Source of the DNA: an archaeon
Lineage (GTDB): Archaea > B1Sed10-29 > JAJSAI01
Assembly: GCA_024274695.1 (NCBI GenBank)
Contig: JAJSAI010000019.1
Coordinates: forward strand, 23,265 to 87,264
DNA length: 64,000 bases
Reading direction: 5' to 3'
The translations under genes were made by a program, and so were the position numbers. Positions within the stretch are counted from its first letter, which is position 1. Every line of letters starts with the position of its first letter. This document shows, one piece after another, positions 1,115 through 24,516 of the stretch. The notes beneath the pieces are model-generated. The model worked only from the letters and a program-made list of their open reading frames with translations. It did not search any database and had not been told where the DNA came from.

Positions 1115-2230
1115 ATGCACTTCACTCTGCACAGACTGAACATCCTTTTGTCCGGGACAGAGACGAGAAGCATTTACGTTAACGGAATGATAAGATCTCT
1201 TGCCTTCGGAATAGCAGGGGTCTTCATACCCATATTCCTGCTGGAAAACGGCCTGCCCCTGCCAGGAATAGGCCTGTTTTACGTGACCCAGTACCTGTTT
1301 TTCGCGATATTCGCCCTGCAGAACACCTTTTTCGAGGAGCTCTTGGGAGGGATAAAGAAGATGATCATCGCAGGAACAGCGTGTTCCGCGATCTTCCTGG
1401 CCACTCTGGGAAGAGTCCCTGTCTGGATGTCTGCAATGCTCGCAGGAGCAGGGCTGGGGCTCTACTGGGTGTCAGTGAACACGGACTTTTCTCTGCACGT
1501 CCGGAAAGGGAAGGCTGGGAGCACGTTCGGGAAATGGACTTCCCTCGCCTCGGTCCCTGCCCTGTTCGCTCCCCTGCTCGGCGGCTGGCTGCTTGACGTG
1601 ATAGGCTTCAGGCTCGTGCTGTTCATTTCCTCAGGAATCCTCGCGCTGTCCCTCATTCCCTTCGTCCTGTCAGAAGACATTTTTGTGAGGCCCAGGAGGA
1701 AAATCAGAGAGGTCCTGGGAGGAGAGCTCTCGGCAGAGTTCATCCTGCAGGGAGTTGTGTTCATCGCCTTCATCCTCTGGCCGGTGTACATCTTCTCCAC
1801 CGGGAAAGACCTGCTCGTGGTGGGTGGTTTGTCAGTCCTCTCCTCCCTCGCCCTCATCCTCTTCAAGTACTCTTACGGCAGGCTGGCGGACAGGCTGAGC
1901 AGGCTCGCCCTCATGAAAGCAGGGGCTCTTCTTAACGCTGTAGTCTGGGTTCTGGCAATGCTCTCCGAGGACGTGGTGTCCCTTTCTGTGGTGTCCGTGC
2001 TGCTCGGGTTCACAGGGTCTCTTGTGGGCACGCCTTTGTTCGTCTTCTTCTCAGAGTACTCAAAAAAAGACCCTCTCGCCTGGATGTCCCTCAGAGAAGT
2101 CTCCCTGTGCCTGGGGAGGATAACAGCGGCCCTGCTGTTCTTCTGGTTCCCTTCCTTTGATTTCGCGTTCGCCCTGGCGGCCTTAGCCTCCGTGGGGCTT
2201 GCAATGGTAAAGCCAGTGCACTCTGAATAA
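1115..2230 (+). CDS. Polytopic membrane transporter, MFS-like, about 12 TM.
   Basis: 371 aa with repeated hydrophobic helices and a central charged loop. Ends in TAA. Confidence 0.55.
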   Translation: MHFTLHRLNILLSGTETRSIYVNGMIRSLAFGIAGVFIPIFLLENGLPLPGIGLFYVTQYLFFAIFALQNTFFEELLGGIKKMIIAGTACSAIFLATLGRVPVWMSAMLAGAGLGLYWVSVNTDFSLHVRKGKAGSTFGKWTSLASVPALFAPLLGGWLLDVIGFRLVLFISSGILALSLIPFVLSEDIFVRPRRKIREVLGGELSAEFILQGVVFIAFILWPVYIFSTGKDLLVVGGLSVLSSLALILFKYSYGRLADRLSRLALMKAGALLNAVVWVLAMLSEDVVSLSVVSVLLGFTGSLVGTPLFVFFSEYSKKDPLAWMSLREVSLCLGRITAALLFFWFPSFDFAFALAALASVGLAMVKPVHSE

Positions 2231-2260
2231 AATTTAAAGGAGTGTGTGATATAATTCCGC

Positions 2261-3301
2261 ATGGAGCCAATAGTTATAGTTGGTGCAGGCCCTGCTGGCC
2301 TATCCCTTCATGAGAAACTGTGCGAGTCTGGGATCAAAAGTTTGATCATAGAGCGTAAGAAAAGCGTTGGAGAATATGGCAATAGGGTAATAAATCTTGA
2401 TACTTTCAAGTTATTTGGATCTCCTGAAGAAATAATCTCTTATAAAATAGATGAAGTCGTGTTTTCTTCCCCTTCTGGTGAAAAGTTACGCGCCAAAAAA
2501 GAAAGGGGGTACGTTATTAATAAGAGGGATCTAGAATTATGCTTGCTTGATAGGATTTCTGAGCCTAACATAGTATATGGTAAGGCAGTAATAAAATTAA
2601 ATAAGAAAAAGAAAAAACTTCTTACTTCTGATGGGACGATCTTTTCTTATTCTATACTTGTAGGATGCGATGGAGTCCATTCTACAGTACGAAGTTCTGT
2701 GACAGATGAACAGATTAAGACAATAAATTGTTACGCGGAAGAATACGATGGCCAGGAACCCACTACCGTATTCGTAGAACCTGATTTGGCAAAAGGCTTT
2801 TATGGTTGGATAATGCCCCTGTCAGATAAGAGAATTGAGATAGGTATAGGTAGTGTCAACAGAGGAGTTTCCCAAAAAGAACTTTTTCATATCTTGAAAA
2901 AAAAACATGGATTAGATAAATATTCTAGGTCACTTAAGATAACGGGAGGAACACTTCCTGTAGACTTTCTGAAAAGAGAAGTGTATTCTGATATTGTTCT
3001 GATAGGGGATGCTAGTGGAGGAGAACCCGCAATGGGGGGATCACTTCACAAGACTGTTGATGAAGTTAATCTACTTTTCAATATTCTTTCTGAGAAAAAA
3101 AATTTAGAGGAGTATGATATCTTATGGAACGGATTTTTCCTTGAAGAGTTTAAAACTCAAAGAAAACTTAGAAATGCGATTGACTCTGCTACAGAGAAAG
3201 ATATTGACAAAGTGTTCAAAAAGTTACATAAAAAAAGATTACCTGATAAGGGGCTCGTTACCACTATATTTAAAGAGATTGCTCTTAATCTTGAAAAGTA
3301 A
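2261..3301 (+). CDS. FAD-dependent oxidoreductase of the geranylgeranyl reductase family. It is a second paralog and sits in the AT-rich island.
   Basis: N-terminal GAGPAG dinucleotide motif. GCDGVHSTVR, YGWIMP and GDASGG motifs are typical of GGR-family enzymes. Local GC is about 35-40 %. Confidence 0.6.
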   Translation: MEPIVIVGAGPAGLSLHEKLCESGIKSLIIERKKSVGEYGNRVINLDTFKLFGSPEEIISYKIDEVVFSSPSGEKLRAKKERGYVINKRDLELCLLDRISEPNIVYGKAVIKLNKKKKKLLTSDGTIFSYSILVGCDGVHSTVRSSVTDEQIKTINCYAEEYDGQEPTTVFVEPDLAKGFYGWIMPLSDKRIEIGIGSVNRGVSQKELFHILKKKHGLDKYSRSLKITGGTLPVDFLKREVYSDIVLIGDASGGEPAMGGSLHKTVDEVNLLFNILSEKKNLEEYDILWNGFFLEEFKTQRKLRNAIDSATEKDIDKVFKKLHKKRLPDKGLVTTIFKEIALNLEK

Positions 3302-3336
3302 AACTTTTTAATTTCTTTTAATTCTTTTGAAGAGAT

Positions 3337-3987
3337 ATGTTGACATATCCAGAATTAGTAAAGTTAATGCTTTCTGGGAAAATGAAGCTTTCTTTCGGAG
3401 AAATACTATTCCTTGGACATCCTTTTTCTCTGATGCCGATGTACTTTTACGAAGAACTTACTAAGAGACTTATTGAAGATCCTGAAGAAAGAGAAAAGGT
3501 ATATTTTGACGCATGGAAAGCGGGGTTTAAGTTTACCTTAGATATAGTGAACAAGTACTCTCTAGAAAGCTTTGAAGATAGATACAAACTTGCGATGGAC
3601 TTGGTGAGCATGTCTGGTTTTGGGGATTATAGAACGATTGAATTCTTTCCAGGTTACGCTATTTTCAAGATAATAAACAATCCATTTCCAAAATTATTCT
3701 ATCCCTCAAATCTTAAAGTTGATCACATTTTGAGAGGCATTAATGCGGGCGGCGGAACCGTTGTTCATGAAAGAATAATAAATTGTGTTGAATTGGAATG
3801 CGCTGCTGAGAACAGTAAATATTGCTTGCATGTGAACGGGAGTCAAAAATATTTAGAAGAAAGAATAGAAAATGAAAAAATTCTGGAAGAACAACTTGGA
3901 GATATTAAAAATCTTCAAAAGAAACAAGTTTCTTATTTGAAAAGGAATTACAAAAAAATATATAAAAAATATTCTATAGAAAAATAA
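3337..3987 (+). CDS. Hypothetical protein in the AT-rich island. It may be a small-molecule-binding V4R-like fold, but this is very uncertain.
   Basis: 216-aa ORF with a Cys-containing C-terminal segment INCVELECAAENSKYCLH. No confident family match from sequence. Confidence 0.35.
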   Translation: MLTYPELVKLMLSGKMKLSFGEILFLGHPFSLMPMYFYEELTKRLIEDPEEREKVYFDAWKAGFKFTLDIVNKYSLESFEDRYKLAMDLVSMSGFGDYRTIEFFPGYAIFKIINNPFPKLFYPSNLKVDHILRGINAGGGTVVHERIINCVELECAAENSKYCLHVNGSQKYLEERIENEKILEEQLGDIKNLQKKQVSYLKRNYKKIYKKYSIEK

Positions 3988-4819
3988 CAAACAATATTAA
4001 GAATAATAAAATTATTAAAATTCTTTCATAAGCATATACTTTAGTATAATTTTTTTGCCATGTTATTATTAGAGCTAAAATAATAAACAATAAACTAACA
4101 AGGGATATCACATGTTGATTAATGATTAATGTAAATAATCCTAATAAAAATCCTGAAGAAAGTATCCATTTTCGAACTATTCTCATACCCTTTTTTGTAC
4201 CATATTTTGTTGCCAAAGTCTTTTTTCCGTATACTGCATCGTATTTAGCATCTTTGAAGTCTTTAGTTGAGATGAGCGCGGAAATAAATAGCGTTAACAA
4301 AAAGAGGTTAACGATGAACTGAAAGCTAATCTGCTCAGTTAAAATTATTAGTCCCAATACTCCTGTCACAAAAAATGAGCCGTAAGCTAAGGTGATTGGC
4401 CCTACAAAAGGAATTCTCGCAAGCCATAGTGAGTAAGATATCCCTATTATAAGTAGTGAAAGAGCAAGCATTATACCCCAAAATCCTCCCATAACCCCAA
4501 CAACTAATCCAGAACTCCAGAGTATATACATCACTCTTTTAGCTTCGTGTATGCTGATTCTTCCAGAGGTAAGAGGTCTGTAGGGCATGCTTTTTTTATC
4601 TATCTTGTAATCAATTATATCATTTAGGATTGCTCCTGCAGAATACATGGAAAAGATGATTGCTGCAGAAATAGCAATTTTTGACCAATCAAATTCCTGA
4701 GCAAATGCTGCAGCATAGAACAATGCCAAGAAATAAATAAGGCTATTCCAAGGGCGCATAAGGTCTATGAAAGAAAGGATCTTATTTTTGGAGAGTTTTT
4801 CGGAAAAGAATTCTTCCAT
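3974..4819 (-). CDS. UbiA-superfamily prenyltransferase, digeranylgeranylglyceryl-phosphate synthase-like.
   Basis: About 9 TM. First Asp-rich motif NDIIDYKID and second motif KDFKDAKYD. AT-rich. Confidence 0.65.
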   Translation of the reverse strand: MEEFFSEKLSKNKILSFIDLMRPWNSLIYFLALFYAAAFAQEFDWSKIAISAAIIFSMYSAGAILNDIIDYKIDKKSMPYRPLTSGRISIHEAKRVMYILWSSGLVVGVMGGFWGIMLALSLLIIGISYSLWLARIPFVGPITLAYGSFFVTGVLGLIILTEQISFQFIVNLFLLTLFISALISTKDFKDAKYDAVYGKKTLATKYGTKKGMRIVRKWILSSGFLLGLFTLIINQHVISLVSLLFIILALIITWQKNYTKVYAYERILIILLFLILFVIFL

Positions 4820-4823
4820 AATT

Positions 4824-5654
4824 TCACTTTAGTAACAGGCTTCTTCCTTTTTCTGTGTTCACAACAATCCCTTTACCTCTTATTATGTCAAATGAGAAAA
4901 ATGCTTTTTCATGCTGAGTTAGTCTCATCTTTCTGATCTGTAAGTTTCGGGAGGACTCTCCTGCAATTCCAGTAAAGTATAGCAGAATTACTCCATCTAC
5001 CATAAACTCACTGAATGAGTCTCTACTAAGAGACTTAGAGTCTTCTAGCAATTCTGACGTGATCAGAACACTTGCTTTGGTATCTCTCAATGTTTTGAAG
5101 AGTCTCATGAGGATAAATTTGTTTATTAGTTTGTCGTTTAATGGAAGGGGTATTACAGTATCCTCTACAACGGTATAAGGTGTAGAAATAAAATGAGAAA
5201 AAATAGCGTTAAGGTCTCTAATCCCTTTTTGTGAAAGTATTGTTTCATATTTTTTTGGCAGGACCATAGAATAACTGTCTAACAGGGTTGTGACAGAATC
5301 TATCACAACTCTTTTTGGGCCAAACTTTTTACATTCCTCTTTAATTTTGTTGATCATACAACCCTCTTCAGGATTGAGAGAAATAACACGAAGTTTCTTG
5401 GATTTTTCATCTTTTTTCAAGTCTATATTAAACTGTTTGGCTTGTTGAATTATCATTTCTTCGGATTCTTCAGTGGTAAAGAAAAGAGTTTTCTCATTAT
5501 TTTCCGCCCCTGCATGTGCATAATGTATGGCAAATGTTGATTTTCCAGTTCCTGCCCCTCCAGATATGAGAATAATGCTTCCTTGAGGAAACCCTCCTTG
5601 TACAAGTTTGTCAAAGCCTTCGACACCTGTTTTTATTCTTTTCATAAGCACCAC
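4824..5654 (-). CDS. KaiC/RadB-like RecA-superfamily ATPase.
   Basis: GFDKLVQGGFPQGSIILISGGAGTGKST Walker A region typical of archaeal KaiC-like proteins. AT-rich. Confidence 0.65.
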   Translation of the reverse strand: MVLMKRIKTGVEGFDKLVQGGFPQGSIILISGGAGTGKSTFAIHYAHAGAENNEKTLFFTTEESEEMIIQQAKQFNIDLKKDEKSKKLRVISLNPEEGCMINKIKEECKKFGPKRVVIDSVTTLLDSYSMVLPKKYETILSQKGIRDLNAIFSHFISTPYTVVEDTVIPLPLNDKLINKFILMRLFKTLRDTKASVLITSELLEDSKSLSRDSFSEFMVDGVILLYFTGIAGESSRNLQIRKMRLTQHEKAFFSFDIIRGKGIVVNTEKGRSLLLK

Positions 5655-5702
5655 CGCTTATTAACCTCAAAAGATAAATTTATTTAAAACTTTTTTGATT
5701 GC

Positions 5703-7010
5703 TCATATGACGATCTCTTCCCCGGGCTCGGGAATGCTGTTCTGTATTCCCTTCTTTTCCAGGGTCCTGGAAAAGCTCTTCTGTTTCTCTTTCTCCCCGT
5801 GAACCAGGAACACCTGCTCCCGCGGATGGTTCTCTTTTATCCAGTTCAGCAGATCGTTCCTGTCAGCGTGGGCTGAGAGCCTGAGCTGGTGTACCCTGAG
5901 CTTTATTTCCACTTCCTCGTCCCCGATGATCACGTTCCTCGCTCCCTCTGATATCTGTCTTCCGAGAGTGCCTTCGGCCTGGTACCCTACGAGTATGACC
6001 GAGTTGTCCTTGTCTCCCGCCAGTTTTTTCAGGTAGTATACGCTAGGCCCTCCTGTCAGCATCCCGCTCGTGCTGACTATTATCGCCCTCTCTTTCTCCA
6101 GCACGTCCCTCCTGTCCTTGGTTCTCGGGGTCTTCCAGAACCTTGACTTGAATGGATCGTCGTCCGCGAGCAGGATCCTTCTTGGTATTTCCTCTTTTAG
6201 CCAGAGGACGTTGTGCCTGTATATCCTGCTCGCCTTTTTCACCATCCCGTCCGCGTAACCGTGCTCGTTGGAAAGGAATCCTGACCTGACGTAGTTGTCT
6301 ATGATCATCATGACCTCCTGTCCTCTTCCCACCCCGAAAACGGGGATGAGCACTTTCCCAGGAGTGCTCCTGATTATTTCGGCCAGTTCCCTTGAAACTG
6401 TTTTCAGGCTCGGCAGGAGATCGTCAGGACCAGAATAGGTTGACTCTGTTATAAGATAGTCTGTCCTGGGGATCTTTTTCTCCGCCCCGTACAAGAGGTT
6501 GGTTTCCCTCGTGTTCATGTCCCCAGTGTAGTACAGGCTCTTCCGACCCTTTTTCACCCTGAACCCTGCGGCCCCGAGTATGTGTCCTGCGTTGTAAGCG
6601 GTGACCTCGAACCCTGCCACCCTGACAGGCTTCTTGTACTCCAGGAAAGAGAACCTGGACAGGATCTTTTTGACATCGTTCCTGCTGAAGTTAATGTCCT
6701 TTTTCGCCACGCCCAGCCTGTAGTAGTCTGCCAGCAGGACCTGGACGAGGTCAAAGGTCGGCTTGGTGCTGTACACTTTCCCCCTGAACCCGAGCCTTTC
6801 CAGGTCAGGCAGGAACCCTGAGTGGTCAAGGTGGGCGTGGGTCACGAAAACGGCCTTAAGCGACCTCGCAATCCTCTCGTCCAGCAGGGGATACTCTTTA
6901 GGGTCTCCTAGTTTGACCCCGCAGTCCAAGAGAATCCTTTTCCCCTTGTCCTCCAGCATTACCGCCGATCTTCCGACTTCTCCGCAGGCTCCCAGAAAAC
7001 AGACCTTCAT
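5703..7010 (-). CDS. Metallo-beta-lactamase/beta-CASP ribonuclease (aCPSF2 / aRNase J-like) without KH domains.
   Basis: HAHLDHSG motif, beta-CASP region, and a C-terminal His motif LSAHAD. Confidence 0.7.
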   Translation of the reverse strand: MKVCFLGACGEVGRSAVMLEDKGKRILLDCGVKLGDPKEYPLLDERIARSLKAVFVTHAHLDHSGFLPDLERLGFRGKVYSTKPTFDLVQVLLADYYRLGVAKKDINFSRNDVKKILSRFSFLEYKKPVRVAGFEVTAYNAGHILGAAGFRVKKGRKSLYYTGDMNTRETNLLYGAEKKIPRTDYLITESTYSGPDDLLPSLKTVSRELAEIIRSTPGKVLIPVFGVGRGQEVMMIIDNYVRSGFLSNEHGYADGMVKKASRIYRHNVLWLKEEIPRRILLADDDPFKSRFWKTPRTKDRRDVLEKERAIIVSTSGMLTGGPSVYYLKKLAGDKDNSVILVGYQAEGTLGRQISEGARNVIIGDEEVEIKLRVHQLRLSAHADRNDLLNWIKENHPREQVFLVHGEKEKQKSFSRTLEKKGIQNSIPEPGEEIVI

Positions 7011-13332: not shown

Positions 13333-14376
13333 TTGCTCGTGGCAGGCATTGTTGGTTACGGAGCGTACGTGCCCAGGTACCGGATAAAGGTTGAAGAGAT
13401 CGCGAGAGTGTGGAACAAGGACCCTGAGGCGATCAAAAAGGGATTGAACCTTCTAGAGAAAAGTGTTCCCGGTCTGGACGAGGATTCCGTGACAATCGCT
13501 GTTGAAGCGAGCAGGAACGCGCTTTCCCGCGCTGGAATAAGCCCTGAAAAAATAGGGGCTGTTTTCGTCGGTTCAGAGTCTCCTCCTTATGCTGTCAAGC
13601 CCTCTGCCACCATAGTAGCTGAAGCAATAGGCTCTGTCCCAGTGATGATGGCTGCTGACCTGGAGTTCGCGTGCAAGGCCGGGACCCAGGCGGTTCTGAA
13701 CTGTATCGGGCTCGTGGACTCAGGGATGATAGATTACGGACTGGGAGTAGGATCTGACACGAGCCAGGGCAGGCCTGGAGACGCGCTTGAGTACTCTGCT
13801 TCAGCCGGAGGGGCGGCGTTCATCATAGGGAAGAAGGACGCGCTCGCGGAAGTGGAAGAATTCTACTCCTACACCACGGACACTCCCGACTTCTGGAGGA
13901 AAGAAGGTCAGGAGTACCCGCGGCACGGGGCAAGGTTCACGGGAAGGCCCGCGTACTTCAAGCACGTGCTCAGCGCGAGCAAGGGGGTCATGGAAAAAGG
14001 AGGATACTCTCCCAGCGATTTTGACTACGCTGTCTTCCACCAGCCCAACGGAAAATTTCCCCTGCTCGCGGCAAAACAGTTGGGCATACCAAAAGAAAAA
14101 GTCCTGCCAGGCCTCCTGAGCCCGGTGATAGGGAACACGTACTCAGGAGCGACCCTGTTGGGTCTCGCGGCAGTCCTTGACAGGGCAGGTCCCGGGGACT
14201 TGATCCTCGCAACCTCTTACGGTTCTGGCGCGGGATCAGACGCGATGGTTATCAGGGTCACTGACAGGATAGAAGAAAAAAGGGACAAGGCACCCAAGGT
14301 TGAGGAGTACGTCTCACGCAAGAAGCACGTGACGTACGGGGAGTACGTGAAGCTCAGACGCAAGCTCAAGGTGTGA
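13333..14376 (+). CDS. HMG-CoA synthase (archaeal mevalonate pathway).
   Basis: Start [15 protein letters not shown] and catalytic Cys region [11 protein letters not shown]. Adjacent to thiolase and DUF35, as in the known archaeal thiolase/HMGCS/DUF35 complex. Confidence 0.85.
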
Positions 14377-15560
14377 TGATCATGAGAAGAGTCGCGGTCA
14401 TAGGCGCTGGCATGACCCGGTTCGGGGAAAGATGGGAAGAGGGAATGAGAGAGCTAGCAGTAGAAGCGGGAGTAAGAGCACTAGAGAGTGCTGGGGTGAG
14501 AGGAAGCCAGATACAAGCCCTGTACGTGGGGAACATGAGCGGAGGCAGGTTCATTGGACAAGAGCACATAGGAGCCCTCGCGGCAGACTACCTCGGGCTG
14601 AACCCCATCCCGAGCACAAGAATTGAGGCTGCTTGCGCGAGCGGCGGCCTGGCTTTCAGGCAAGCCTACCTCAGCATCGCGGGCGGAGAGTTCGACCTGG
14701 TGGTCGCGGGAGGAATAGAAAAAATGACGGACGTTCTCACAGGACAGGCCACAACAACCCTGGGAGGCGCTGCTGACCAGGAGTGGGAGACCTTCTTCGG
14801 GGCAACCTTTCCCAGCATATACGCGCTCATGGCAAGAAGGCACATGCACGAGTACGGGACTACAGAAGAACAGCTTGCCATGGTAGCGGTCAAGAACCAT
14901 GACAATGGTCTGAAAAACCCCTACGCCCAGTTCAGGAAAAAGATTACTGTCGAGGACGTGCTAAACTCTTCTCCGGTGGCCACTCCCCTCAAGCTGCTTG
15001 ACTGTTCTCCCATCACTGACGGGGCCGCGGCAGTCGTACTCGCGAGTGAGGAAATGGCCAGGAAGATCACGGATGACCCCGTGTGGATTAACGCTTCAGC
15101 CCAAGCGAGTGACACTCTAGCCCTTCATTCCAGGAGCTCGTTTACTTCAATTCCTGCCACGCGCCTGGCAGCAGAAAAAGCGTACCAGAAAGCAGGAATA
15201 AAACCGAAAGACGTTGACGTTGCCGAGGTGCACGACTGCTTCACCATCGCAGAGATAATGGCTGTTGAAGACCTTGGGTTCGTGCCAAAAGGAGAAGGGG
15301 GGAAAGCGTACGAAGAAGGGATGTTCGAGCTGGGGTCTGACATTTCAGTGAACACGTCAGGAGGACTCAAGGCCTGCGGGCACCCTGTTGGGGCCACGGG
15401 AATAAAACAGGTCGCGGAAGTGTTCTGGCAGCTCAGGGGAGAAGCAGGCGAGCGGCAGATTCCTGACGCAGAGATAGGGCTCACGCACAACGTCGGAGGG
15501 TCTGGAGCCACAGTAGTCGTGCACGTGCTCTCAAGATATCCTGACCTCAGGCAGAGGTGA
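14373..15560 (+). CDS. Acetyl-CoA acetyltransferase (thiolase).
   Basis: Thiolase fold with active-site Cys IEAACASGG and C-terminal [12 protein letters not shown] overlap with HMGCS. Confidence 0.85.
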
Positions 15561-15979
15561 AAAGCATGGCAGAACAGGGGAGCATTCCACTCATTTGGAG
15601 GAGGTATCCTCAGAGGTACAGGCTGGAAGGGAACAAGTGCGAGAACTGCGGGACCTACTTTTTCCCTCCCAGGCTCGTGTGCCCGAATTGCAGGAGGAGA
15701 GGAAGCCTTACCAAGCACGTTTTCTCAGGGAAGGGAGTTGTGGAATCCTACACGGTGGTCCACGTTCCTCCTGACGAGATGGCGGGCCAGGAGCCCTACG
15801 TGCTCGCACTAGTGAGACTGGAAGAAGGTCCTGTAGTTACAGCAGTAGTAACAGACGTTGACCCAGAAGACGTGAAAATCGGGACAAGGGTCAGGCTCGC
15901 GTTCAGGAGAATATCAGAACAAGGAGAGAGCGGTCTGGTGTGCTACGGGTACAAGTTCGCGCCCGAGAAAGGATTTTAA
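15557..15979 (+). CDS. DUF35 Zn-ribbon/OB-fold scaffold protein of the thiolase/HMGCS complex.
   Basis: CENCGTYFFPPRLVCPNCRRRG zinc ribbon followed by an OB-fold. ATGA overlap with thiolase. Confidence 0.8.
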   Translation: MKSMAEQGSIPLIWRRYPQRYRLEGNKCENCGTYFFPPRLVCPNCRRRGSLTKHVFSGKGVVESYTVVHVPPDEMAGQEPYVLALVRLEEGPVVTAVVTDVDPEDVKIGTRVRLAFRRISEQGESGLVCYGYKFAPEKGF

Positions 15980-16986: not shown

Positions 16987-17493
16987 TTGGTGATGGTCAG
17001 GAAGACAAGGCGGCGGGACCTTGCGGAAGAAATGATGAGAGAGATAAAAAGAAGGCTCTCTTCAAGGGGTTACTCTCCGAGCGTTGAGGAACTGAAGCAG
17101 CGTTTTCCCGGAGTGTCCAAGGGAGAGCTTTACATCGTTTTCAGGAAACTGGTTGAGGAGGGCAGGCTCCCTGAGGCCGTGATCGGGAAAACTCTTGAGA
17201 AGAGAGAAGTCCCTCTCAGTATTAATGATCTTGCTCTTCTCACAGCAGCCCAAGAGTTCAGGGCAAAGTACGGCAGGAAGCCCACGATAGAAGAAGCGGC
17301 CGAAATGGTGGAGCTCCACACCAAAAGAAGCCTGAAAAGGTACAGGCGCGTTCTGGAGGAAAAGCTTGGTAAGGAGACGTTCAGCCAAATCTTTTCCCTT
17401 CAGAAGAAGGGCCGTGTGCCTCCTAAGACAAGGCTTGCTGCCCGGGACGAGGAGCACGAGAAAGAGCTTTTCGAAGAATTATACCGGGACTGA
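16987..17493 (+). CDS. Basic winged-helix-like hypothetical protein.
   Basis: 168-aa ORF, Arg/Lys-rich, no recognisable catalytic motif. Confidence 0.3.
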   Translation: MVMVRKTRRRDLAEEMMREIKRRLSSRGYSPSVEELKQRFPGVSKGELYIVFRKLVEEGRLPEAVIGKTLEKREVPLSINDLALLTAAQEFRAKYGRKPTIEEAAEMVELHTKRSLKRYRRVLEEKLGKETFSQIFSLQKKGRVPPKTRLAARDEEHEKELFEELYRD

Positions 17494-17749
17494 GGCGTGC
17501 TGTCCATGAAACTGTTCGGATTCCTCAAGGGAGGTAAAGAAAAAGTCCTGTCAGAAGAAAAGCAGGAAGAGCCTGTTCCAAAGTACGCGGACAAGGAATG
17601 CGCGTTATGCGGCAAGCCAGAGGCGGACAAGAAGTGAGGAGGCAGTACTGGCACAAGAAGTGTCTCAGGAAAGCCAGGAAAATGGCCAAGAACGCGTTCT
17701 GAACCAGGGCACCAAAAAAATTATATTCGGGCAGTGTTTTAGTGTGCTG

Positions 17750-19090
17750 ATGCCCGTAGTAAAACTGTTTTCTGTGACCGGGCGCGAAGGCCCTGGCCCG
17801 GAAGAAACCTCCGCCTTCGGGGCCCTCGGCTGCTTTGAACAAGACGACTCGTTCTCGTTGTACCAGAAGCTAGCAGGGGACCAGAAGAAGGTAAAAGGGG
17901 TGCTCAAGAATTCTGCGGGCAGGGGCCACGGGTCGGTACAGGACCAGAACCTGTTCATATTCAGCATCCGGGATCTGTCCAGGGCGGCGACACTGCAGTT
18001 GTGCCTGCCCCAGTACCTGATGCACCTGCAACAATCCCTCAGGAGGGCCAACGCGGACAGAGGCTTCCACGTCCCAGAAGGCATGAGCAGGGAGTCCACA
18101 GAACTCATGTCAGACGCCTTCAGGCTCTACGAGAAAATGAAGGAAGAAGGGATCCCGGGAGAAGACGCGAGGTACATACTCCCTTTGTACACTAAGACGA
18201 ACATCCAGACCGCGGGTAACGCCAGAGAACTTTCCCACCTGTTCTGGATGACAGAACACTCTGACGCGCCCTCTGAAGTAAAAGCAGTCGTGAGGAGCAT
18301 GCGCACGTTAGCTGAAGAGATCGCGCCGAACCTTTTCAGGGACTGGGGGTACAACTACGAGGCCCTCGCGTGGTACCCTTCAGCACAGCTCTACTCAGAC
18401 AATCCAGTCATGGACGAGATCGTGCGCAGAAAAGGAGCAGGGGGAGTAAGGCTCGTGGAGTACGATATTCCCGAGGAGCAGGTGAGCAGGGCAGTGCTGG
18501 AAAGGGACGAGGCAATACTCTCTGTCTTAAAGCACTCTCACAACGGGGGCAGCGTGCAAGGGTTTCTGGCCAGGATGTCCCTGGCCGCGTTCCACCAGGC
18601 GATAAGACAGAGGACCTGGGACCAGGCCGTTGAATCGGTCTTCTCTGCAGCAGAGAGAGGAGAGCTGATCATACCCAGGACAGTCCGGGCGAGAGGCTTT
18701 GAGAGGGAGTTCACTGAGCTTGCCAGGAGCATGCTGATAGCATACCGTGAGGAAAAGGAAAGAATAGGAAGGCATGACGCGATAGGAGTGGTGCCGCACG
18801 CGCTCGCCCTGTACGACCTGATACACGTTAACGGATGGAACGCGATACACTCCATAGGAAAGAGAACGTGCATGGAAGCCCAGTGGGAGATAAGAGAAAT
18901 CGCGGCAGGGATTTCCAGGATCATAAAAGAAAAGAACCCTGCGATAGGCAGGTGGTCAGAGCCCCAGGGGGTGGTCTACGGGTACTGCCCTGAAAGAAAC
19001 CCCTGCGGCTACTGCGAGAAAGTGTTGGACAACAGGGGAAAAAAGAGAGGTGGAGGGGAAGAGAGTGAGCCTGAAGGAATTAGACCCTGA
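17750..19090 (+). CDS. thyX: Flavin-dependent thymidylate synthase (ThyX)-like protein with two ThyX domains fused in tandem and a C-terminal Cys cluster.
   Basis: Half 1 has [26 protein letters not shown]...ARELSHLF, where LPQ replaces RHR. Half 2 has [11 protein letters not shown] (an RHRx7S-like motif with H changed to Q) and [12 protein letters not shown]. The tail has [10 protein letters not shown]. The probable start is the Met at 17750 rather than the ORF-track start at 17660. Confidence 0.55.
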
Positions 19091-20312
19091 ACTCGCAGGA
19101 GTGCTTCAAAAAGAGCTCGAGAGGCAGAGGAACACCGTGGAGCTAATAGCATCTGAAAACTTTGTCCCTGAAGAGATCCTACTCGTGATGGGCTCGGTCC
19201 CGACAAACAAGTACGCGGAAGGATACCCCGGCAGAAGATACTACGGGGGAAACCAGTACATTGACGAGATAGAGCGGCTCGCGATAGAACGGGCGAAACA
19301 GTTGTTCGGGGCAGAGCACGCTAACGTGCAGCCCCTCTCAGGATGCCCGGCAAACCTGGCCGCGTACGCTGCTTTCCTGGAGCCGGGAGACAAGATACTT
19401 GGAATGAGCCTCGCGTCAGGAGGTCACCTGAGCCACGGCTACAAGATGAGCATCACCGGAAAATACTACAGGGGGATCGCGTACGACGTTGATCCTGAAA
19501 CAGAAACTCTTGACTATGACGCAATACTAGAACAGGCCAGGAGAGAAAAGCCGAGGATGATAGTGTGCGGGGCCAGCGCTTATCCCAGGATAATAGACTT
19601 CAAGGCATTCAAGGAAATCGCTGATGACGTGGGCGCGTACCTGATGGCTGACATCGCGCACATCGCTGGCCTTGTAGCCGCAGGCTTGCACCCCAGCCCG
19701 GTCCCCTACTGTGACGTGGTCACCACGACCACTCACAAGACTCTCAAGGGCCCGAGAAGCGGTCTTATAATGTGCAAGCAAGAGCACGCCAAGAAAATAG
19801 ACAGGGCCGTTTTCCCAATGCTGCAAGGAGGACCTCACGAGCACACGATAGCCGCGAAAGCCCTTTGCTTCAAGCTCGCCATGCGGCCGGAGTTCAAAGA
19901 ATACCAAGCACAGGTTGTGAAGAATGCTAAGGCGATGGCAGAAGTGTTCCTGGACCACGGTTACCGGCTGGTCACAGGAGGCACGGACAACCACCTGCTG
20001 CTCGTGGACGTGGCCCAAAAAGGAATAGGGGGAAAACAAGCGCAGGACGCTCTTGAAGAGGTTGGAATAACAGTGAACAAGAACATGATCCCCTTTGACA
20101 AGCGAAAACCAGTGGACCCGAGTGGGATAAGAATCGGGACGCCCGCGATAACAACAAGAGGCATGAAAGAAGACGCGGCAGCCAGGATTGCAGAACTGGT
20201 GGTAAAGGTCTTGGAGAACGTTGATGACGCGAGCGTGAAAGAAAGGGTCGCGGGGGAAGTTAGAGAACTGCTAGAGGAATACCCCCTGTACCCTGGCTTG
20301 TCCTACGCGTGA
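19050..20312 (+). CDS. glyA: Serine hydroxymethyltransferase.
   Basis: [12 protein letters not shown]-lysine region [14 protein letters not shown], full length. Confidence 0.9.
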
Positions 20313-22230: not shown

Positions 22231-24516
22231 ATGAGCGCTCTCGCCTACACGGTCCTCGCGCTACTGGCTGTTAACAGCCTGTTCTCTGTTTCGGACTACT
22301 ACGCGCGGGTCACGACCCTGAAGACTCCTGAAAACATTCCTGCTGCTGTCATGCAGTACTCCATGCCCGGGAAAGAGTACTACCTCTCCTCCCTTAGGAC
22401 CGCGTGGGAGAAGGCAGCTGACGCCAAGAGAGAAGCGGGAAACATGTTAGAAGTGTACATAAAGGAATCTCTTTCTAACCTCGCCTTTTCCAGCTACTGC
22501 CGGTCCAAGCTCTCCGAGGTATACGGTTATGCCGGGTCAGCGTTCTACGCGACGGTCTCGCTCTTGGAAAGGGACGCCGCGGTCCTGAGGGACGCGGGCG
22601 TGGAAAACCCCAAGTACTCGGGCAGGGCCAGGCCAGTGTATCTCAGCCTGCTCCAGGCGGTCAGCGCGGTAGAGCATCCTGACAACCTCTCCTCGTCAGA
22701 ATCGTCCCGCAGGATAAGGGAAGGGCTGAAGGCAGGAAACTCAGACTACTTCAACGCGCTCGTAGGATACCCTGACGGTCTCTTCAGGGTAATGCTTGAC
22801 GAGCACAGGATGTTCCTGCTGGCCCTTGACTACCTTGACGCTGAGTACAAACAAGCGCTAGCAGAAGTGGAGTACAGGAACAGGCTACTGTCCTACAGGG
22901 CGAGAGAGTACGAGGCCAACAGGCTGGACGAGGTGGCGTGGAACAGGATCAGGCTAAGGGGAGGGATACTGTCCGGGGAAAGCTCTCCGGAGAACCCTGC
23001 CAGAGCATACCAGACCGCTAGGGAGTGGTCCCTGAAAACAACCGCTGTCACTGGCTCTGCTAGGGCGCTGTACTCAGCCGGAAGAAAGGCTGACGCCATA
23101 GTCCTGCTGCACGATCACTGCCTGGAAACAGAAAAGGTGATACGCGCTCTTGAGGGCGCGGTGGAAGCGGCCCGCGCGGTTGAAGAACAACTGCACCGCA
23201 GAGCGGTTAAGGCGTTTTCAAGCGCTTCAAGAGAGAGCGCGGGGTACTCGCTGGCGGAAAAAGCCTGTTCAGAGCAGAGTCCTCTTCTGGGAGAAAGCAT
23301 CCTCCTCTTACAGAAGTGCATCCGCTTGTCCGAGAAGACAAGAGAACCTGACCCTTCCTCGCTTGAGGGGGAAGAACTGGCGGATAACCTTTCAAGACTT
23401 GCCTGGGACAAGTACTACCAGCTGGAACAGTACCTTGACGATCCTGTCTTCCTGGACAGGATCAGGACAAGCCTTCAGCTGTTGGACGCGTCGTCGGACG
23501 ATCCGCTGCAGGCCGCTGCAGGATACCAGAAGCTCGTGCTGGAAATGGATGAGAAGCGCGCGGGGCTTGAGTCAGAGTATTCCGTGGTGCTGGAGAGCAG
23601 GGTGCTGGATTGCGGGAAGGAACAGGAAGTGAACGCCACAGTGTACTTCTCAGGCCCGCGCACCAGCGTTTACAGGGCAAGGGTCTTTCTCCCTGAACGA
23701 GTAGCGTTCCCTGACGGGTCAAAAAGCAAGATACTGTCTTCAGAAAACCAGTCCCTGAAGATCCCTGTGCACGTGTCCCCTGAATGCGTCAAGGTTTCTG
23801 AAGAACAGGTGAAGGCTGACGATACAAGGGTGTACTACGAGGAAGAGTGGAAGGTGAGATCCCCTCTGCCCGTGAGGCTTGCTGACGGGACGGTGACAGC
23901 GTCCCTCGCGAAGGTGCTCGTGTCACGCCCCTCGTGGCTGGTGGTGGGCAGGAAAGAACAGGGCAGCATGCTCGTGCTCACAGTCTTCAACCCAGGAGAC
24001 ACTCTGAAGAACGTGGTCCTGTCAGCAGACACTACCCGGGAAGTGGAGGAGTGCAGCTCCTGCATACTCAGGCAGGGGAAAGTTCTTTTCTTCATTCCAT
24101 TAGTCCGCGGAGGAGAGAAAAAAGTGCTGGAGGCCAGGCTCTCGGGGAACAGGACAAACGCCCTTTCCGAAAGTGTTCCCGAAGAACAGGAGGACTACAA
24201 GAACACTCTGCTGCTAGGACCCTTGAACACGAGCGGTTACAACGCCTTCATAGAGTCACGCGTGTTCGCTCCAGCGGCAGACGCTGGGAGCGAGGGCACG
24301 AACATCACTCTACAGGGTGAGGGCAAGAAAGACATTGTCCAGAGAAGAAACGTGTTGAAACCAGTCTCCCTGGAGGCACGTGAGGCCAGAGAACCTGACG
24401 AGCGTTCTAGCGGCAACTCCTACAAGTACTACGTGATACCCCTTGGTTTTGCTGTGCTTTCGTTCATGCTCCTGAAGAGGAAGCCCGCGAGGAAGAAGAT
24501 TGGGAGGGTCATATGA
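22231..24516 (+). CDS. Large secreted/surface protein (761 aa) with an N-terminal signal peptide and a C-terminal PGF-CTERM-like TM plus basic tail.
   Basis: N-terminal MSALAYTVLALLAVNSLFS. C-terminal YYVIPLGFAVLSFMLLKRKPARKK. Confidence 0.5.
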   Translation: MSALAYTVLALLAVNSLFSVSDYYARVTTLKTPENIPAAVMQYSMPGKEYYLSSLRTAWEKAADAKREAGNMLEVYIKESLSNLAFSSYCRSKLSEVYGYAGSAFYATVSLLERDAAVLRDAGVENPKYSGRARPVYLSLLQAVSAVEHPDNLSSSESSRRIREGLKAGNSDYFNALVGYPDGLFRVMLDEHRMFLLALDYLDAEYKQALAEVEYRNRLLSYRAREYEANRLDEVAWNRIRLRGGILSGESSPENPARAYQTAREWSLKTTAVTGSARALYSAGRKADAIVLLHDHCLETEKVIRALEGAVEAARAVEEQLHRRAVKAFSSASRESAGYSLAEKACSEQSPLLGESILLLQKCIRLSEKTREPDPSSLEGEELADNLSRLAWDKYYQLEQYLDDPVFLDRIRTSLQLLDASSDDPLQAAAGYQKLVLEMDEKRAGLESEYSVVLESRVLDCGKEQEVNATVYFSGPRTSVYRARVFLPERVAFPDGSKSKILSSENQSLKIPVHVSPECVKVSEEQVKADDTRVYYEEEWKVRSPLPVRLADGTVTASLAKVLVSRPSWLVVGRKEQGSMLVLTVFNPGDTLKNVVLSADTTREVEECSSCILRQGKVLFFIPLVRGGEKKVLEARLSGNRTNALSESVPEEQEDYKNTLLLGPLNTSGYNAFIESRVFAPAADAGSEGTNITLQGEGKKDIVQRRNVLKPVSLEAREAREPDERSSGNSYKYYVIPLGFAVLSFMLLKRKPARKKIGRVI

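What the first reader, a model, noticed from the sequence alone, without database searches (positions are those of the whole stretch)
17750..19090. Single-chain tandem ThyX-ThyX fusion with a degenerate first RHR motif and a C-terminal Cys cluster, overlapping glyA
Canonical ThyX is a roughly 220-250-aa protomer that forms a homotetramer, with the RHRx7S motif contributing to dUMP binding. Here one roughly 450-aa polypeptide contains two ThyX-like halves.

Half 1 conserves the GHxS...FxFxI..SR core ([26 protein letters not shown]), but LPQ replaces RHR. Half 2 has [11 protein letters not shown], an RHRx7S-like motif with H changed to Q, and the C-terminal [12 protein letters not shown] ThyX signature. 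[11 protein letters not shown] cluster follows.

The gene overlaps glyA (SHMT), which makes the methylene-THF substrate, so a thymidylate role is likely. The fused pseudo-dimer with one degenerate half would halve the number of active sites and could have an altered mechanism.
Basis: partly seen in the sequence, partly recalled or inferred. Interest (0 to 1): 0.55.

Follow-up and report, generated by a model that had tools for sequence, protein, structure and literature searches.

The report
Tandem ThyX with split active site
This gene encodes a flavin-dependent thymidylate synthase built from two fused ThyX domains that have each kept a different part of the active site; the architecture is common and already annotated in databases, but apparently nobody has studied how it works.

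Summary
Window 17750-19090 (+) encodes a 446-aa protein, and each half scores independently as ThyX/Thy1 (PF02511).

It is not an artefact. Hundreds of 430-470-aa homologues share the architecture. The close family sits in DPANN archaea (nearest: Micrarchaeota, 78% identity) and CPR/Patescibacteria. A second large tandem clade occurs in Clostridia and Desulfobacterota. All are annotated "FAD-dependent thymidylate synthase".

The reading "one degenerate half" is wrong in detail. Across 120 sequences, half 2 keeps the residues one ThyX subunit supplies (Q75, RHR as RQR, R174). Half 1 keeps those the two neighbouring subunits supply (Mtb R87, S88, R90, R147, R165). I infer a dimer that mimics the ThyX tetramer, with two complete composite active sites and two vestigial ones.

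The "Cys cluster" is a conserved four-Cys site. C374, C413 and C419 are invariant, and the fourth ligand is C407 or C422, never both. I infer a metal site of unknown identity.

Neighbouring genes in related loci (thymidylate kinase, dCMP deaminase, SHMT, NrdD) support dTMP synthesis. Interest is moderate: a known enzyme and a database-known architecture with undescribed mechanistic detail.

The parts
17714..17727 (+). A/T-rich TATA-box-like element AAAAAAATTATATT, ending 22 nt upstream of the ATG. It is a possible archaeal promoter for a leaderless thyX-glyA transcript.
   Evidence: Read directly from the sequence. The role is inferred only, from the usual archaeal TATA-to-start spacing of about 25 nt. 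No Shine-Dalgarno-like sequence precedes ATG 17750.
17750..19090 (+). Tandem ThyX gene (446 aa plus stop): flavin-dependent thymidylate synthase of the two-domain type.
   Evidence: ORF. PF02511 twice. TIGR02170 at 102.6 bits against a cut-off of 87.9. AlphaFold2 model with pLDDT 88.4 and pTM 0.87. Foldseek best hits are all ThyX chains.
17750..18364 (+). Half 1 (aa 1-205): a ThyX domain specialised for the neighbour-subunit roles, namely dUMP loop and FAD clamp.
   Evidence: PF02511 E=3.1e-27 on its own. The conserved residues are listed in the table.
18005..18013 (+). L86-P87-Q88, the degenerate counterpart of the RHR motif (T. maritima R78-H79-R80) in half 1.
   Evidence: MAFFT alignment to verified T. 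maritima ThyX. Across 120 sequences these positions are L/Q/S/G, P (116 of 120) and E/Q/H, never Arg.
18035..18046 (+). S96-L97-R98-R99: the retained dUMP-loop residues S88 and R90 of the ThyX motif. Y91 is replaced by Arg.
   Evidence: S96 and R98 are present in 120 of 120 sequences, and R99 in 118 of 120. The loop is flexible in the model, with pLDDT below 50 at aa 96-98, as in substrate-free ThyX (PMC3498832).
18170..18172 (+). R141, the equivalent of T. maritima R147. It is kept only in half 1.
   Evidence: HMMER alignments to PDB 1kq4. Present in 120 of 120 sequences. Half 2 has I/V/L at the matching position, 345.
18224..18226 (+). R159, the equivalent of T. maritima R165 / M. tuberculosis R190, which contacts FAD from the second subunit. 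It is kept only in half 1.
   Evidence: R in 120 of 120 sequences. Half 2 has W363 in 118 of 120.
18365..18949 (+). Half 2 (aa 206-400): a ThyX domain specialised for the flavin-holding subunit role.
   Evidence: PF02511 E=2.2e-13 on its own, matching profile positions 61-190 only. The N-terminal third has diverged.
18596..18613 (+). Q283 and R286-Q287-R288: the retained Q75 and an RHR motif with H replaced by Q.
   Evidence: All four residues are present in 120 of 120 sequences. Alignment.
18863..18871 (+). R372-T373-C374: the R174 equivalent (dUMP-activating arginine), followed by the first Cys of the four-Cys site.
   Evidence: Aligned to T. maritima LRAD. R372 and C374 are present in 120 of 120 sequences.
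18962..19015 (+). C-terminal extension P405-Q406-G407 ... C413-P-E ... C419-G-Y-C422, which supplies three ligands of the four-Cys site.
   Evidence: C413 and C419 are present in 119 of 120 sequences. Position 407 is Cys exactly when 422 is not (75 of 75), and Gly exactly when 422 is Cys (44 of 44). All 7 tandem representatives without C374 also lack the Cys tail.
19016..19087 (+). Non-conserved, low-confidence C-terminal tail (aa 423-446), whose coding sequence overlaps the glyA ribosome-binding site and start codon.
   Evidence: Not conserved in alignment A1. pLDDT is below 50 for aa 435-446.
19065..20312 (+). glyA (serine hydroxymethyltransferase), overlapping thyX. The likely start is GTG 19065 (MSLKELDPE...), preceded by GGTGGAGGGG at 19049-19058. 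The longest ORF starts at GTG 19050.
   Evidence: PF00464 E=5.7e-166, with the profile matched from position 1 at aa 3. Sequence.

Best explanation
The gene encodes a functional flavin-dependent thymidylate synthase (dUMP + CH2-H4folate + reductant -> dTMP) of the tandem two-domain type.

**Background.** In ordinary ThyX, four identical subunits form four active sites, each built from three subunits.
- One subunit holds the flavin phosphates with RHR and activates dUMP with R174 (role A).
- A second clamps FAD with S/T55 and R165 (role B).
- A third lays a flexible loop carrying S88, R90 and Y91 over dUMP (role C).

**What happened here.** After an ancient internal duplication, the two halves divided these jobs.
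- Half 2 kept only the role-A residues.
- Half 1 kept only the role-B and role-C residues.

**Predicted assembly.** Two chains should therefore assemble into a pseudo-tetramer (H1-H2)2. It would have two complete composite sites, each made of H2 + H1 + H1'. The other two sites would be vestigial, filled with hydrophobic residues, and unable to bind FAD or dUMP.

**Four-Cys site.** Four cysteines tie the C-terminal extension to the helix that follows the catalytic arginine. They are C374, C413, C419 and either C407 or C422. This is most likely a structural metal (zinc) site.

**Operon.** The gene is probably co-transcribed and translationally coupled with glyA, which regenerates the methylene-folate donor.

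**Shown:** domain identity, residue conservation, family distribution, gene neighbourhood.

**Inferred:** oligomeric state, number of working sites, metal binding, activity.
For: **Both halves are ThyX.**
- Each half hits PF02511 separately, and the whole protein passes the TIGR02170 cut-off.
- The AlphaFold2 model is confident (pLDDT 88.4, pTM 0.87).
- Its best PDB matches are all ThyX chains (TM-score normalised to target 0.66-0.77).

**Subunit roles come from the literature.**
- PMC6514825 assigns, for M. tuberculosis ThyX site 1: RHR R95-H96-R97 and R199 from subunit A; S71 and R190 from subunit B; R87, Q103, S105, R107 and Y108 from subunit C.
- PMC3498832 independently places Q75 and the R174 equivalent on one monomer, and S88/Q89 on another.

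**Residue mapping.** I mapped positions through a T. maritima ThyX sequence verified as 100% identical to PDB 1kq4.

**Conservation over 120 family members.**
- Half 2: Q283, R286, Q287, R288 and R372 are each present in 120 of 120. Its positions for Mtb R87, R90, R147 and R165 are L/I, Y/F, I/V and W.
- Half 1: R78 (Mtb R87), Q94, S96, R98, R141 and R159 are each present in 120 of 120, and S62 in 105 of 120. Its RHR positions are L-P-E/Q, and its R174 position is S/T/N/A.

**The split is old and widespread.**
- It holds in 36-38%-identical members from MAGs labelled Thermoprotei and Nitrososphaeria.
- It holds in a separate Clostridia/Desulfobacterota clade: half 1 has EFR...SRRY, half 2 has RHR without SxRY.

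**Loop behaviour in the model.** The half-1 loop (aa 96-98) is disordered, as the substrate loop of canonical ThyX is. The matching stretch of half 2 is a confident helix.

**Four-Cys site.**
- There is a perfect 407/422 ligand swap in 119 of 119 sequences.
- C374 co-occurs with the Cys tail: all 7 tandem representatives lacking C374 also lack the tail.

**Function, from 69 related loci.**
- 28 loci carry a second same-strand ORF that clusters with ThyX through fusion proteins. Most are about 190-290 aa, and most are directly adjacent. The three I scanned are all thymidylate kinase.
- A kinase-dCMP deaminase gene occurs in 19 loci.
- SHMT occurs in 15 loci, directly downstream in 9.
- NrdD occurs in 8 loci.
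- One homologue (P0092) is fused to thymidylate-kinase domains.
Against: - No coordinates of the model were available to me. I could not measure whether the residues assigned to one composite site, or the four cysteines, are actually close in space.
- The dimeric pseudo-tetramer is assumed by analogy, not predicted or observed.
- Two residues considered important in T. maritima ThyX are changed even in the supposedly intact site: H79 to Q (120 of 120) and Y91 to R (118 of 120). Y91 mutants are strongly impaired in T. maritima (PMC8316439).
- I could not find the subunit that supplies R147 in any paper I could read. Its assignment to role B or C is an inference.
- The alignment of half 2 around aa 294-299 is ambiguous by one residue (differ). 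Neither version puts an Arg at the R90 position.
- Activity has not been tested for any tandem ThyX that I could find.
Confidence: 0.68

Rival explanations
1. The four-Cys site is a redox-active iron-sulfur cluster rather than structural zinc. It would pass electrons from a ferredoxin-type donor to the flavin, giving these mostly anaerobic organisms an NADPH-independent way to reduce ThyX.
For: - There are always four Cys ligands, with a ligand swap.
- The first ligand sits two residues after the active-site arginine R372.
- One ligand is in a C-P context, which is common in ferredoxin-type motifs (my own knowledge).
- The clades found are dominated by labels of anaerobic lineages: DPANN, CPR, Clostridia and Desulfobacterota.
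- ThyX has no dedicated NADPH-binding domain (PMC3498832).
Against: - The spacing (C-x5-C-x2-C or C-x5-C-x5-C, plus a distant Cys) matches no canonical Fe-S motif I know.
- Four-Cys sites that staple a C-terminal tail are usually zinc sites.
- I could not measure the distance to the flavin.
- No paper I found links ThyX to Fe-S clusters or ferredoxin.
- Tandem ThyX has also been reported in Chloroflexi, many of which are aerobes (PMC3224940).
Confidence: 0.12
2. Half 1 is a catalytically dead scaffold or regulatory pseudo-domain, and half 2 alone forms the active sites.
For: Half 1 lacks RHR and the R174 equivalent. Half 2 carries the recognisable RQR-x7-S motif and the AQWEI signature.
Against: - Half 2 lacks the arginines that canonical ThyX takes from the two neighbouring subunits (Mtb R87, R107/R90, R190/R165) and also R147.
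- Half 1 keeps every one of these in 120 of 120 sequences.
- Half 1 scores better against PF02511 than half 2 (96 against 50.9 bits).
- Invariant catalytic-type residues in a dead domain would be unexplained.
Confidence: 0.08
3. The protein is a ThyX-fold enzyme with a different reaction, for example a PolB-like UMP/dUMP methylase or another flavin-dependent methylase, and not the cell's thymidylate synthase.
For: - PolB (PDB 4p5a/4p5b) is among the structural and sequence matches.
- H79Q and Y91R alter the canonical site.
Against: - The protein passes the TIGR02170 equivalog cut-off.
- The genomic neighbourhood is made of dTTP-pathway genes in both DPANN and CPR genomes: thymidylate kinase, dCMP deaminase, SHMT and NrdD. 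There is also a natural fusion to thymidylate kinase.
- No thyA or second thyX lies in the 64-kb window. This is weak evidence, because it is only part of a genome and the ThyA query was recalled from memory.
Confidence: 0.07
4. The fusion is an assembly or frameshift artefact that joins two adjacent thyX genes.
For: None beyond the a priori possibility.
Against: - The same continuous architecture, with a conserved inter-domain segment (N202, E204, W208 and P210 invariant), is found in 69 genomes of different phyla and in hundreds of proteins from independent assemblies.
- The two halves share only about 18% identity, so this is not a recent repeat that could mislead an assembler.
Confidence: 0.01

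Closest known systems
Canonical single-domain ThyX / FDTS (T. maritima TM0449, PDB 1kq4/1o26; M. tuberculosis Rv2754c, PDB 2af6/3gwc; PBCV-1 A674R, PDB 4fzb)
   Same: - Same fold in both halves.
- Same key residues when the two halves are taken together: Q75, R78, R80, S88, R90, R147, R165 and R174.
- Same AQWEI helix.
- Same expected reaction and the same link to SHMT.
   Different: - One chain carries two diverged domains (about 18% identical) instead of one.
- The RHRx7SxRY motif is split between the halves.
- H79 is Gln and Y91 is Arg.
- Two of the four site positions are predicted to be vestigial.
- There is an added C-terminal four-Cys extension.
- No tandem ThyX is among the Foldseek matches listed from the PDB (best 50 shown) or the PDB sequence hits.
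Other tandem ThyX clade (Clostridia, Desulfobacterota such as Desulfoluna spongiiphila, Aenigmarchaeota; about 460-470 aa), and the 'duplicated ThyX' of Chloroflexi noted by Valas and Bourne 2009 (PMC3224940)
   Same: - Two-domain architecture.
- Same direction of specialisation: half 1 loses RHR and keeps SxRY; half 2 keeps RHR and R174 and loses SxRY.
- Same R-x-C plus Cys-rich tail.
- Annotated simply as FAD-dependent thymidylate synthase.
   Different: - The window's DPANN/CPR family has RQR rather than RHR.
- It has R rather than Y at the Y91 position.
- It has W rather than R at the half-2 R165 position.
- Many of its archaeal members use C422 rather than C407 as the fourth Cys.
- I could not obtain a Chloroflexi sequence, so I do not know which clade those belong to.
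Herpesvirus monomeric dUTPase (my own knowledge, not tested here)
   Same: It follows the same evolutionary logic. A subunit of a homo-oligomer with shared active sites was duplicated in tandem. Complementary loss of motifs in the two halves then left fewer, composite active sites within one chain.
   Different: It has an unrelated fold and reaction. It yields one site per monomer, rather than the two predicted here per dimer.
PolB UMP/dUMP methylase (PDB 4p5a/4p5b)
   Same: It has the ThyX fold and is among the structural and sequence matches.
   Different: It is single-domain and belongs to an antibiotic biosynthesis context. The gene neighbourhood here is dTTP synthesis.

Membership tests
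ThyX / flavin-dependent thymidylate synthase (PF02511, TIGR02170, EC 2.1.1.148) | Thy1/ThyX domain recognised by the family profile above its curated cut-off. | tested here: met
   PF02511: half 1 scores 96 bits and half 2 scores 50.9 bits against a cut-off of 24.8. TIGR02170 equivalog: 102.6 bits against 87.9.
ThyX / flavin-dependent thymidylate synthase (PF02511, TIGR02170, EC 2.1.1.148) | ThyX fold. | tested here: met
   AlphaFold2 model with pLDDT 88.4. All top Foldseek PDB hits are ThyX chains (probability 1.00, TM-score normalised to target 0.66-0.77), each covering about one half of the query.
ThyX / flavin-dependent thymidylate synthase (PF02511, TIGR02170, EC 2.1.1.148) | Intact ThyX motif RHRx7S(x)RY within one protomer. 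| tested here: not met
   Half 1 reads LPQ-x7-S-L-R-R. Half 2 reads RQR-x7-S-V-F. The motif is complete only when the two halves are combined. Even then H is Q and Y is R.
ThyX / flavin-dependent thymidylate synthase (PF02511, TIGR02170, EC 2.1.1.148) | dUMP-activating arginine (T. maritima R174), plus R147 and R165. | tested here: met
   R372 in half 2 (R174), R141 in half 1 (R147) and R159 in half 1 (R165). Each is invariant in 120 sequences, and each is present in only one half.
ThyX / flavin-dependent thymidylate synthase (PF02511, TIGR02170, EC 2.1.1.148) | [quoted passage not shown] | not testable with these tools
   Only single-chain prediction was available, without coordinates. The residue pattern predicts a dimer that forms a pseudo-tetramer with two complete sites (inference).
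ThyX / flavin-dependent thymidylate synthase (PF02511, TIGR02170, EC 2.1.1.148) | Bound FAD, and dUMP- and CH2H4folate-dependent dTMP formation with NAD(P)H. | not testable with these tools
   This needs biochemistry or complementation. Indirect support comes from neighbouring thymidylate kinase, dCMP deaminase, SHMT and NrdD genes, and from a Tmk fusion.
Tandem (two-domain) ThyX clade | Two ThyX domains in one chain, with a conserved inter-domain segment. | tested here: met
   Full-length single-stretch matches to 430-550-aa representatives.
Tandem (two-domain) ThyX clade | Complementary retention of residues: role A in half 2, roles B and C in half 1. | tested here: met
   120 sequences; distant archaeal members; second clade.
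Tandem (two-domain) ThyX clade | Four-Cys site: R-x-C after the R174 equivalent, plus a Cys-rich C-terminal extension. | tested here: met
   C374, C413, C419 and C422 in the window protein. Family statistics. Metal binding itself was not testable.

The most novel reading that the evidence does not exclude
The conserved four-Cys site next to the catalytic arginine of half 2 binds an iron-sulfur cluster. The cluster would deliver electrons from ferredoxin or a similar low-potential donor to the flavin. Tandem ThyX enzymes would then be ferredoxin-dependent thymidylate synthases, and the two vestigial sites would have been remodelled to support this. That would give a new reductive half-reaction for ThyX. 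It would also answer, for anaerobes with little NADPH metabolism, what reduces ThyX in vivo.
Probability: 0.12. Interest if true: 0.75.

Novelty: new variant of a known kind. Interest (0 to 1): 0.4.

Why it matters
ThyX is an antibiotic target and a model for flavin-mediated methyl transfer. All structural and kinetic work rests on homotetramers, in which every mutation hits four sites and three roles at once.

A natural enzyme whose two domains have divided those roles offers several things:
- It independently confirms the three-subunit active-site model.
- It gives a clean system in which role-A and role-B/C residues can be mutated separately.
- It shows that two sites per pseudo-tetramer are enough for the apparently sole thymidylate synthase of many DPANN, CPR, clostridial and sulfate-reducer genomes.

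The conserved four-Cys site is, as far as I could find, not described for ThyX, and it could be structural or redox-active. For genome annotation nothing changes: "FAD-dependent thymidylate synthase" remains the right name.

Tried and rejected
**Tools and searches that failed or added little.**
- Foldseek against afdb50, meant to find named tandem ThyX in UniProt organisms such as Chlamydia or Chloroflexi: the library was not installed.
- The look-up of encoding contigs for the exact protein: nothing on record. The source organism is therefore inferred only from the nearest relative, a Micrarchaeota MAG (78% for ThyX, 83% for SHMT).
- The listing of cluster members on ten distant tandem representatives gave almost no taxonomy.
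- The viral contig scan found a single hit, so this is not a typically viral gene.
- tblastn of thymidylate kinase, dCMP deaminase and NrdD from related loci against the window found nothing.

**Alignment attempts.**
- hmmalign and hmmsearch of T. maritima ThyX against half-domain profiles aligned only the C-terminal 90 residues.
- hhalign of half 1 against half 2 in global mode misaligned the motif region.
- The N-terminal mapping therefore rests on MAFFT --add and on the conserved SR...Q..RHR...S.RY spacing.
- In one search I tentatively equated H264 of half 2 with T. maritima H53. One search does not support this, so I dropped it.

**Literature.**
- Searches for tandem, fused or duplicated ThyX found only one passing remark, from 2009.
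- Searches for ThyX with DPANN/CPR, with Fe-S, zinc or ferredoxin, and in Stern et al. 2010 found nothing relevant.
- Leduc et al. 2004 was not held.

**Points from memory that I could not test.**
- I recall that Chlamydia ThyX is about 530 aa and may be a tandem enzyme that has been characterised.
- C28 and C85 of half 1 looked like further metal ligands, being invariant in the close family. They are V or T in the members labelled Thermoprotei and Nitrososphaeria, so I rejected them as essential ligands.
Full report
**1. What is in the sequence**

The + strand carries an ORF from 17660 (GTG) to 19090. The ATG at 17750 gives a 446-aa protein. This protein is identical to an NCBI-derived database entry (P0001), and its N-terminus lines up with those of all homologues.

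Upstream there is no Shine-Dalgarno-like sequence. There is an A/T-rich element, AAAAAAATTATATT, at 17714-17727, ending 22 nt before the ATG. By its spacing it could be an archaeal TATA box for a leaderless transcript; this is inference only.

The stop codon (19088-19090) lies inside the next ORF. That ORF is a full-length serine hydroxymethyltransferase (PF00464, E=5.7e-166). It probably starts at GTG 19065 (MSLKELDPE...), behind GGTGGAGGGG at 19049-19058. This gives an overlap of 26 nt, or 41 nt from GTG 19050.

**2. Both halves are ThyX, and the fusion is real**

Scanned separately against PF02511 (cut-off 24.8 bits):
- aa 1-223 score E=3.1e-27 and cover almost the whole profile.
- aa 224-446 score E=2.2e-13 and cover profile positions 61-190.

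The whole protein exceeds the curated cut-off of the NCBIfam equivalog TIGR02170 thyX (102.6 against 87.9 bits).

An AlphaFold2 model built on a 24-sequence alignment is confident (pLDDT 88.4, pTM 0.87). Its Foldseek matches in the PDB are exclusively ThyX chains of about 180-235 residues. Each aligns to about half of the query (TM-score normalised to target 0.66-0.77, to query 0.32-0.38). None of the PDB ThyX chains listed by the sequence or fold searches is longer than 270 residues, so I found no solved tandem ThyX.

The two halves share only about 18% identity. The segment joining them carries invariant residues (N202, E204, W208, P210). An assembly or frameshift artefact is therefore excluded.

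**3. How common it is**

- A word-indexed search returned 347 relatives. The best 120 are almost all 430-470 aa, 45-78% identical and full-length.
- A scan of one genome per GTDB species found 69 loci. By their labels most are DPANN archaea (Micrarchaeota, Woese-, Pace- and Nanoarchaeota, Diapherotrites, Parvarchaeota) or CPR/Patescibacteria.
- Two distant members (36-38% identity) carry Thermoprotei and Nitrososphaeria labels. A few labels look like mis-binned contigs.
- The nearest relative is a Micrarchaeota MAG (L001; ThyX 78%, SHMT 83%) with the same gene order as the window. The window most likely comes from a Micrarchaeota-like archaeon.
- An exhaustive profile search of 1.84 billion cluster representatives found 4738 proteins at E<=1e-3 and 123 at E<=1e-30. 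The first figure includes ordinary ThyX. Many of the listed best hits are further 410-550-aa proteins matched end to end.
- Searching with one of these (P0216) revealed a second, very large tandem clade of about 460-470 aa. It occurs in Clostridia, Desulfobacterota (for example the cultured Desulfoluna spongiiphila) and Aenigmarchaeota (3956 hits).
- Wherever a source gives a name, it is "FAD-dependent thymidylate synthase".
- The only mention of the architecture I found in the searchable literature is one remark. [quoted passage not shown]

**4. The two halves have divided the active site**

Published structures place each ThyX active site at the junction of three subunits (PMC3498832; PMC5954106). 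A review gives explicit assignments for M. tuberculosis ThyX (PMC6514825):
- Subunit A supplies the RHR motif (T. maritima R78, H79, R80) to the FAD phosphates and flavin. It also supplies R199 (T. maritima R174) to dUMP.
- Subunit B supplies S71 (T. maritima T55) and R190 (T. maritima R165) to FAD.
- Subunit C supplies R87, the Q103 backbone, S105 (S88), R107 (R90) and the Y108 (Y91) lid to dUMP.
- The PBCV-1 structure agrees: Q75 and the R174 equivalent come from one monomer, and S88/Q89 from another.

I recalled the T. maritima sequence and verified it as 100% identical to PDB 1kq4. I aligned it to each half and tabulated 120 family members.

| Residue (T. maritima numbering unless stated) | Role | Half 1 | Half 2 |
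|---|---|---|---|
| Q75 | A | Q83, variable (Q 87/120) | Q283, 120/120 |
| R78 | A | L86 (L/Q/S/G) | R286, 120/120 |
| H79 | A | P87 (116/120) | Q287, 120/120 |
| R80 | A | Q88 (E/Q/H) | R288, 120/120 |
| R174 | A | T168 (S/T/N/A) | R372, 120/120 |
| T55 / Mtb S71 | B | S62, 105/120 | no recognisable equivalent |
| R165 / Mtb R190 | B | R159, 120/120 | W363, 118/120 |
| Mtb R87 | C | R78, 120/120 | L278 (L/I) |
| Mtb Q103 | C | Q94, 120/120 | V294 (V/I/L) |
| S88 | C | S96, 120/120 | S296, 95/120 |
| R90 | C | R98, 120/120 | F298 (Y/F) |
| Y91 | C | R99, 118/120 | S299 (mostly D) |
| R147 | not found | R141, 120/120 | I345 (I/V/L) |

So half 2 is a pure role-A domain, and half 1 is a pure role-B-plus-C domain. 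Neither could build a site with copies of itself.

In a D2 tetramer, the subunit in role A meets its role-B and role-C partners across two different two-fold axes. If both partners must be half-1 domains, the only true two-fold axis relates half 2 to half 2' and half 1 to half 1'. This is exactly what a dimer of tandem chains would give.

The prediction is a pseudo-tetramer with two complete sites (H2 + H1 + H1'). The other two sites would be lined by L/P/E, S/T, W, Y, I and L in place of the arginines. This step is inference; I had no coordinates or multimer model.

The model's local behaviour fits. The half-1 loop S96-R98 is the only internal segment with pLDDT below 50, like the substrate loop that is disordered in ligand-free ThyX. 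The matching half-2 stretch is a confident helix.

The same division of labour is seen elsewhere:
- in the distant members labelled Thermoprotei and Nitrososphaeria;
- across the distant representatives;
- in the Clostridia/Desulfobacterota clade, where half 1 reads EQFxIEFRLASFTVKSRRY (RHR lost, S-R-R-Y kept) and half 2 reads LTHxxRHR with no SxRY.

The split is therefore old, and it is a property of tandem ThyX in general rather than of this gene.

Two deviations are specific to the DPANN/CPR family: H79 is always Gln, and Y91 is Arg. Y91 is thought to help the methylene transfer in T. maritima (PMC8316439). This is the main reason to keep some doubt about identical chemistry.

**5. The cysteine cluster**

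- C374, two residues after the R174 equivalent, is invariant, and C413 and C419 are nearly so (119 of 120).
- Position 407 is Cys in 75 sequences, and in all 75 position 422 is not Cys.
- Position 407 is Gly in 44 sequences, and in all 44 position 422 is Cys.
- Every protein thus has exactly four cysteines in this unit. The window protein uses C422.
- The C422 type is found mostly in DPANN archaea and the C407 type mostly in CPR, with exceptions.
- Among the wider tandem representatives, all seven that lack Cys at position 374 also lack the Cys-rich tail.
- The second clade has the same R-T-C ... P-S-C ... C-P-E-G ... C-G arrangement.

A swap of one ligand, and co-loss of all four, are what one expects of a four-coordinate metal site. 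I infer a metal site, most likely structural zinc, that pins the C-terminal extension to the active-site helix. An iron-sulfur cluster is not excluded. I found no paper connecting ThyX with either.

**6. Function**

I clustered ORFs within 4 kb of the gene in the 69 related loci and scanned representatives against Pfam.
- 28 loci carry a second same-strand ORF, joined to the ThyX cluster through fusion proteins. Most are about 190-290 aa, and most are directly adjacent. The three I scanned are all thymidylate kinase.
- 19 loci carry a nucleotide-kinase-dCMP deaminase gene, which makes the substrate dUMP.
- 15 carry SHMT; in 9 it is directly downstream.
- 8 carry the anaerobic ribonucleotide reductase NrdD.
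- 6 carry a DeoC-like aldolase.
- One homologue (P0092) is fused to thymidylate-kinase domains.

These links occur in both the archaeal and the bacterial members. No thyA-like or second thyX-like sequence lies in the window. That covers only 64 kb, and the ThyA query was recalled from memory.

Together with the TIGR02170 score, this makes dTMP synthesis by far the most likely function.

In the nearest relative, tmk sits between thyX and glyA. In the window tmk is missing, and the non-conserved tail of ThyX runs into glyA.

**7. Verdict**

- **Observation:** confirmed in every detail.
- **Interpretation:** partly right. It is a tandem ThyX, very probably a thymidylate synthase, and probably has half the usual number of sites. 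It does not have "one degenerate half"; it has two complementary halves.
- **Novelty:** the fusion is a common architecture that databases already name, and it was noted in passing in 2009. I found no description of the split of subunit roles or of the four-Cys site with its ligand swap. I also found no solved structure of a tandem ThyX.
- **Classification:** a new variant of a known kind, of moderate interest (0.4).
- **Most novel reading still open:** the Cys site is a redox cluster feeding the flavin (probability about 0.12).

Noticed in passing
window 17506-17699 (+): A 43-aa ORF (MKLFGFLKGGKEKVLSEEKQEEPVPKYADKECALCGKPEADKK*) ends at TGA 17635-17637. The -1 frame continues from 17634 as VRRQYWHKKCLRKARKMAKNAF*. 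Together they would make a small CxxC...HxxC zinc-finger-like protein, so the gene looks split by a frameshift, whether a sequencing error, a pseudogene or programmed. No counterpart was seen upstream of thyX in the closest relative, L001.
   Followed up: partly
window 19016-19090, compared with L001 6341-6931: The nearest relative (Micrarchaeota L001) has a thymidylate kinase gene between thyX and glyA. The window lacks it, and thyX overlaps glyA directly. No tmk, dCMP deaminase or nrdD homologue lies anywhere in the 64 kb.
   Followed up: partly
window 2000-6000: A low-GC stretch (0.37 against about 0.53 elsewhere). It holds an FAD-binding geranylgeranyl-reductase-like ORF (2261-3301), an ORF with no Pfam hit (3337-3987), a UbiA prenyltransferase (3974-4819, minus strand) and a KaiC-like ATPase (4824-5654, minus strand). 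It may be acquired DNA.
   Followed up: no
window 22231-24516 (+) and 16987-17493 (+): A 761-aa ORF and a 168-aa ORF have no Pfam match. Both are conserved in position in L001, at 42% and 35% identity.
   Followed up: no
window 13333-15979 (+): Three overlapping ORFs look by eye like HMG-CoA synthase, thiolase and a DUF35-type protein, the archaeal acetoacetyl-CoA thiolase/HMGS complex. I did not scan them. None has a homologue near thyX in the 69 related loci.
   Followed up: no
L035 4566-6311; P0092; P0197, P0208 and P0221 (545-552 aa): Some tandem ThyX proteins carry extra regions. L035 has a 130-aa N-terminal extension without a Pfam hit. P0092 is fused to thymidylate-kinase/dNK domains. 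A Woesearchaeota group of about 550 aa has M instead of R at the R147 position of half 1.
   Followed up: no
P0174, P0186, P0188, P0190, P0202, P0207 (410-449 aa): This tandem ThyX subgroup lacks both C374 and the Cys tail. Half 2 reads R-N/H-D instead of RHR/RQR. It is a natural Cys-free comparison set for testing what the four-Cys site does.
   Followed up: partly
L070 (IMG/VR contig IMGVR_UViG_3300010365_002502) 5001-6260: This is the single viral-contig hit for the family (42% identity). It has the C407-type Cys pattern. Its neighbourhood was not examined.
   Followed up: no
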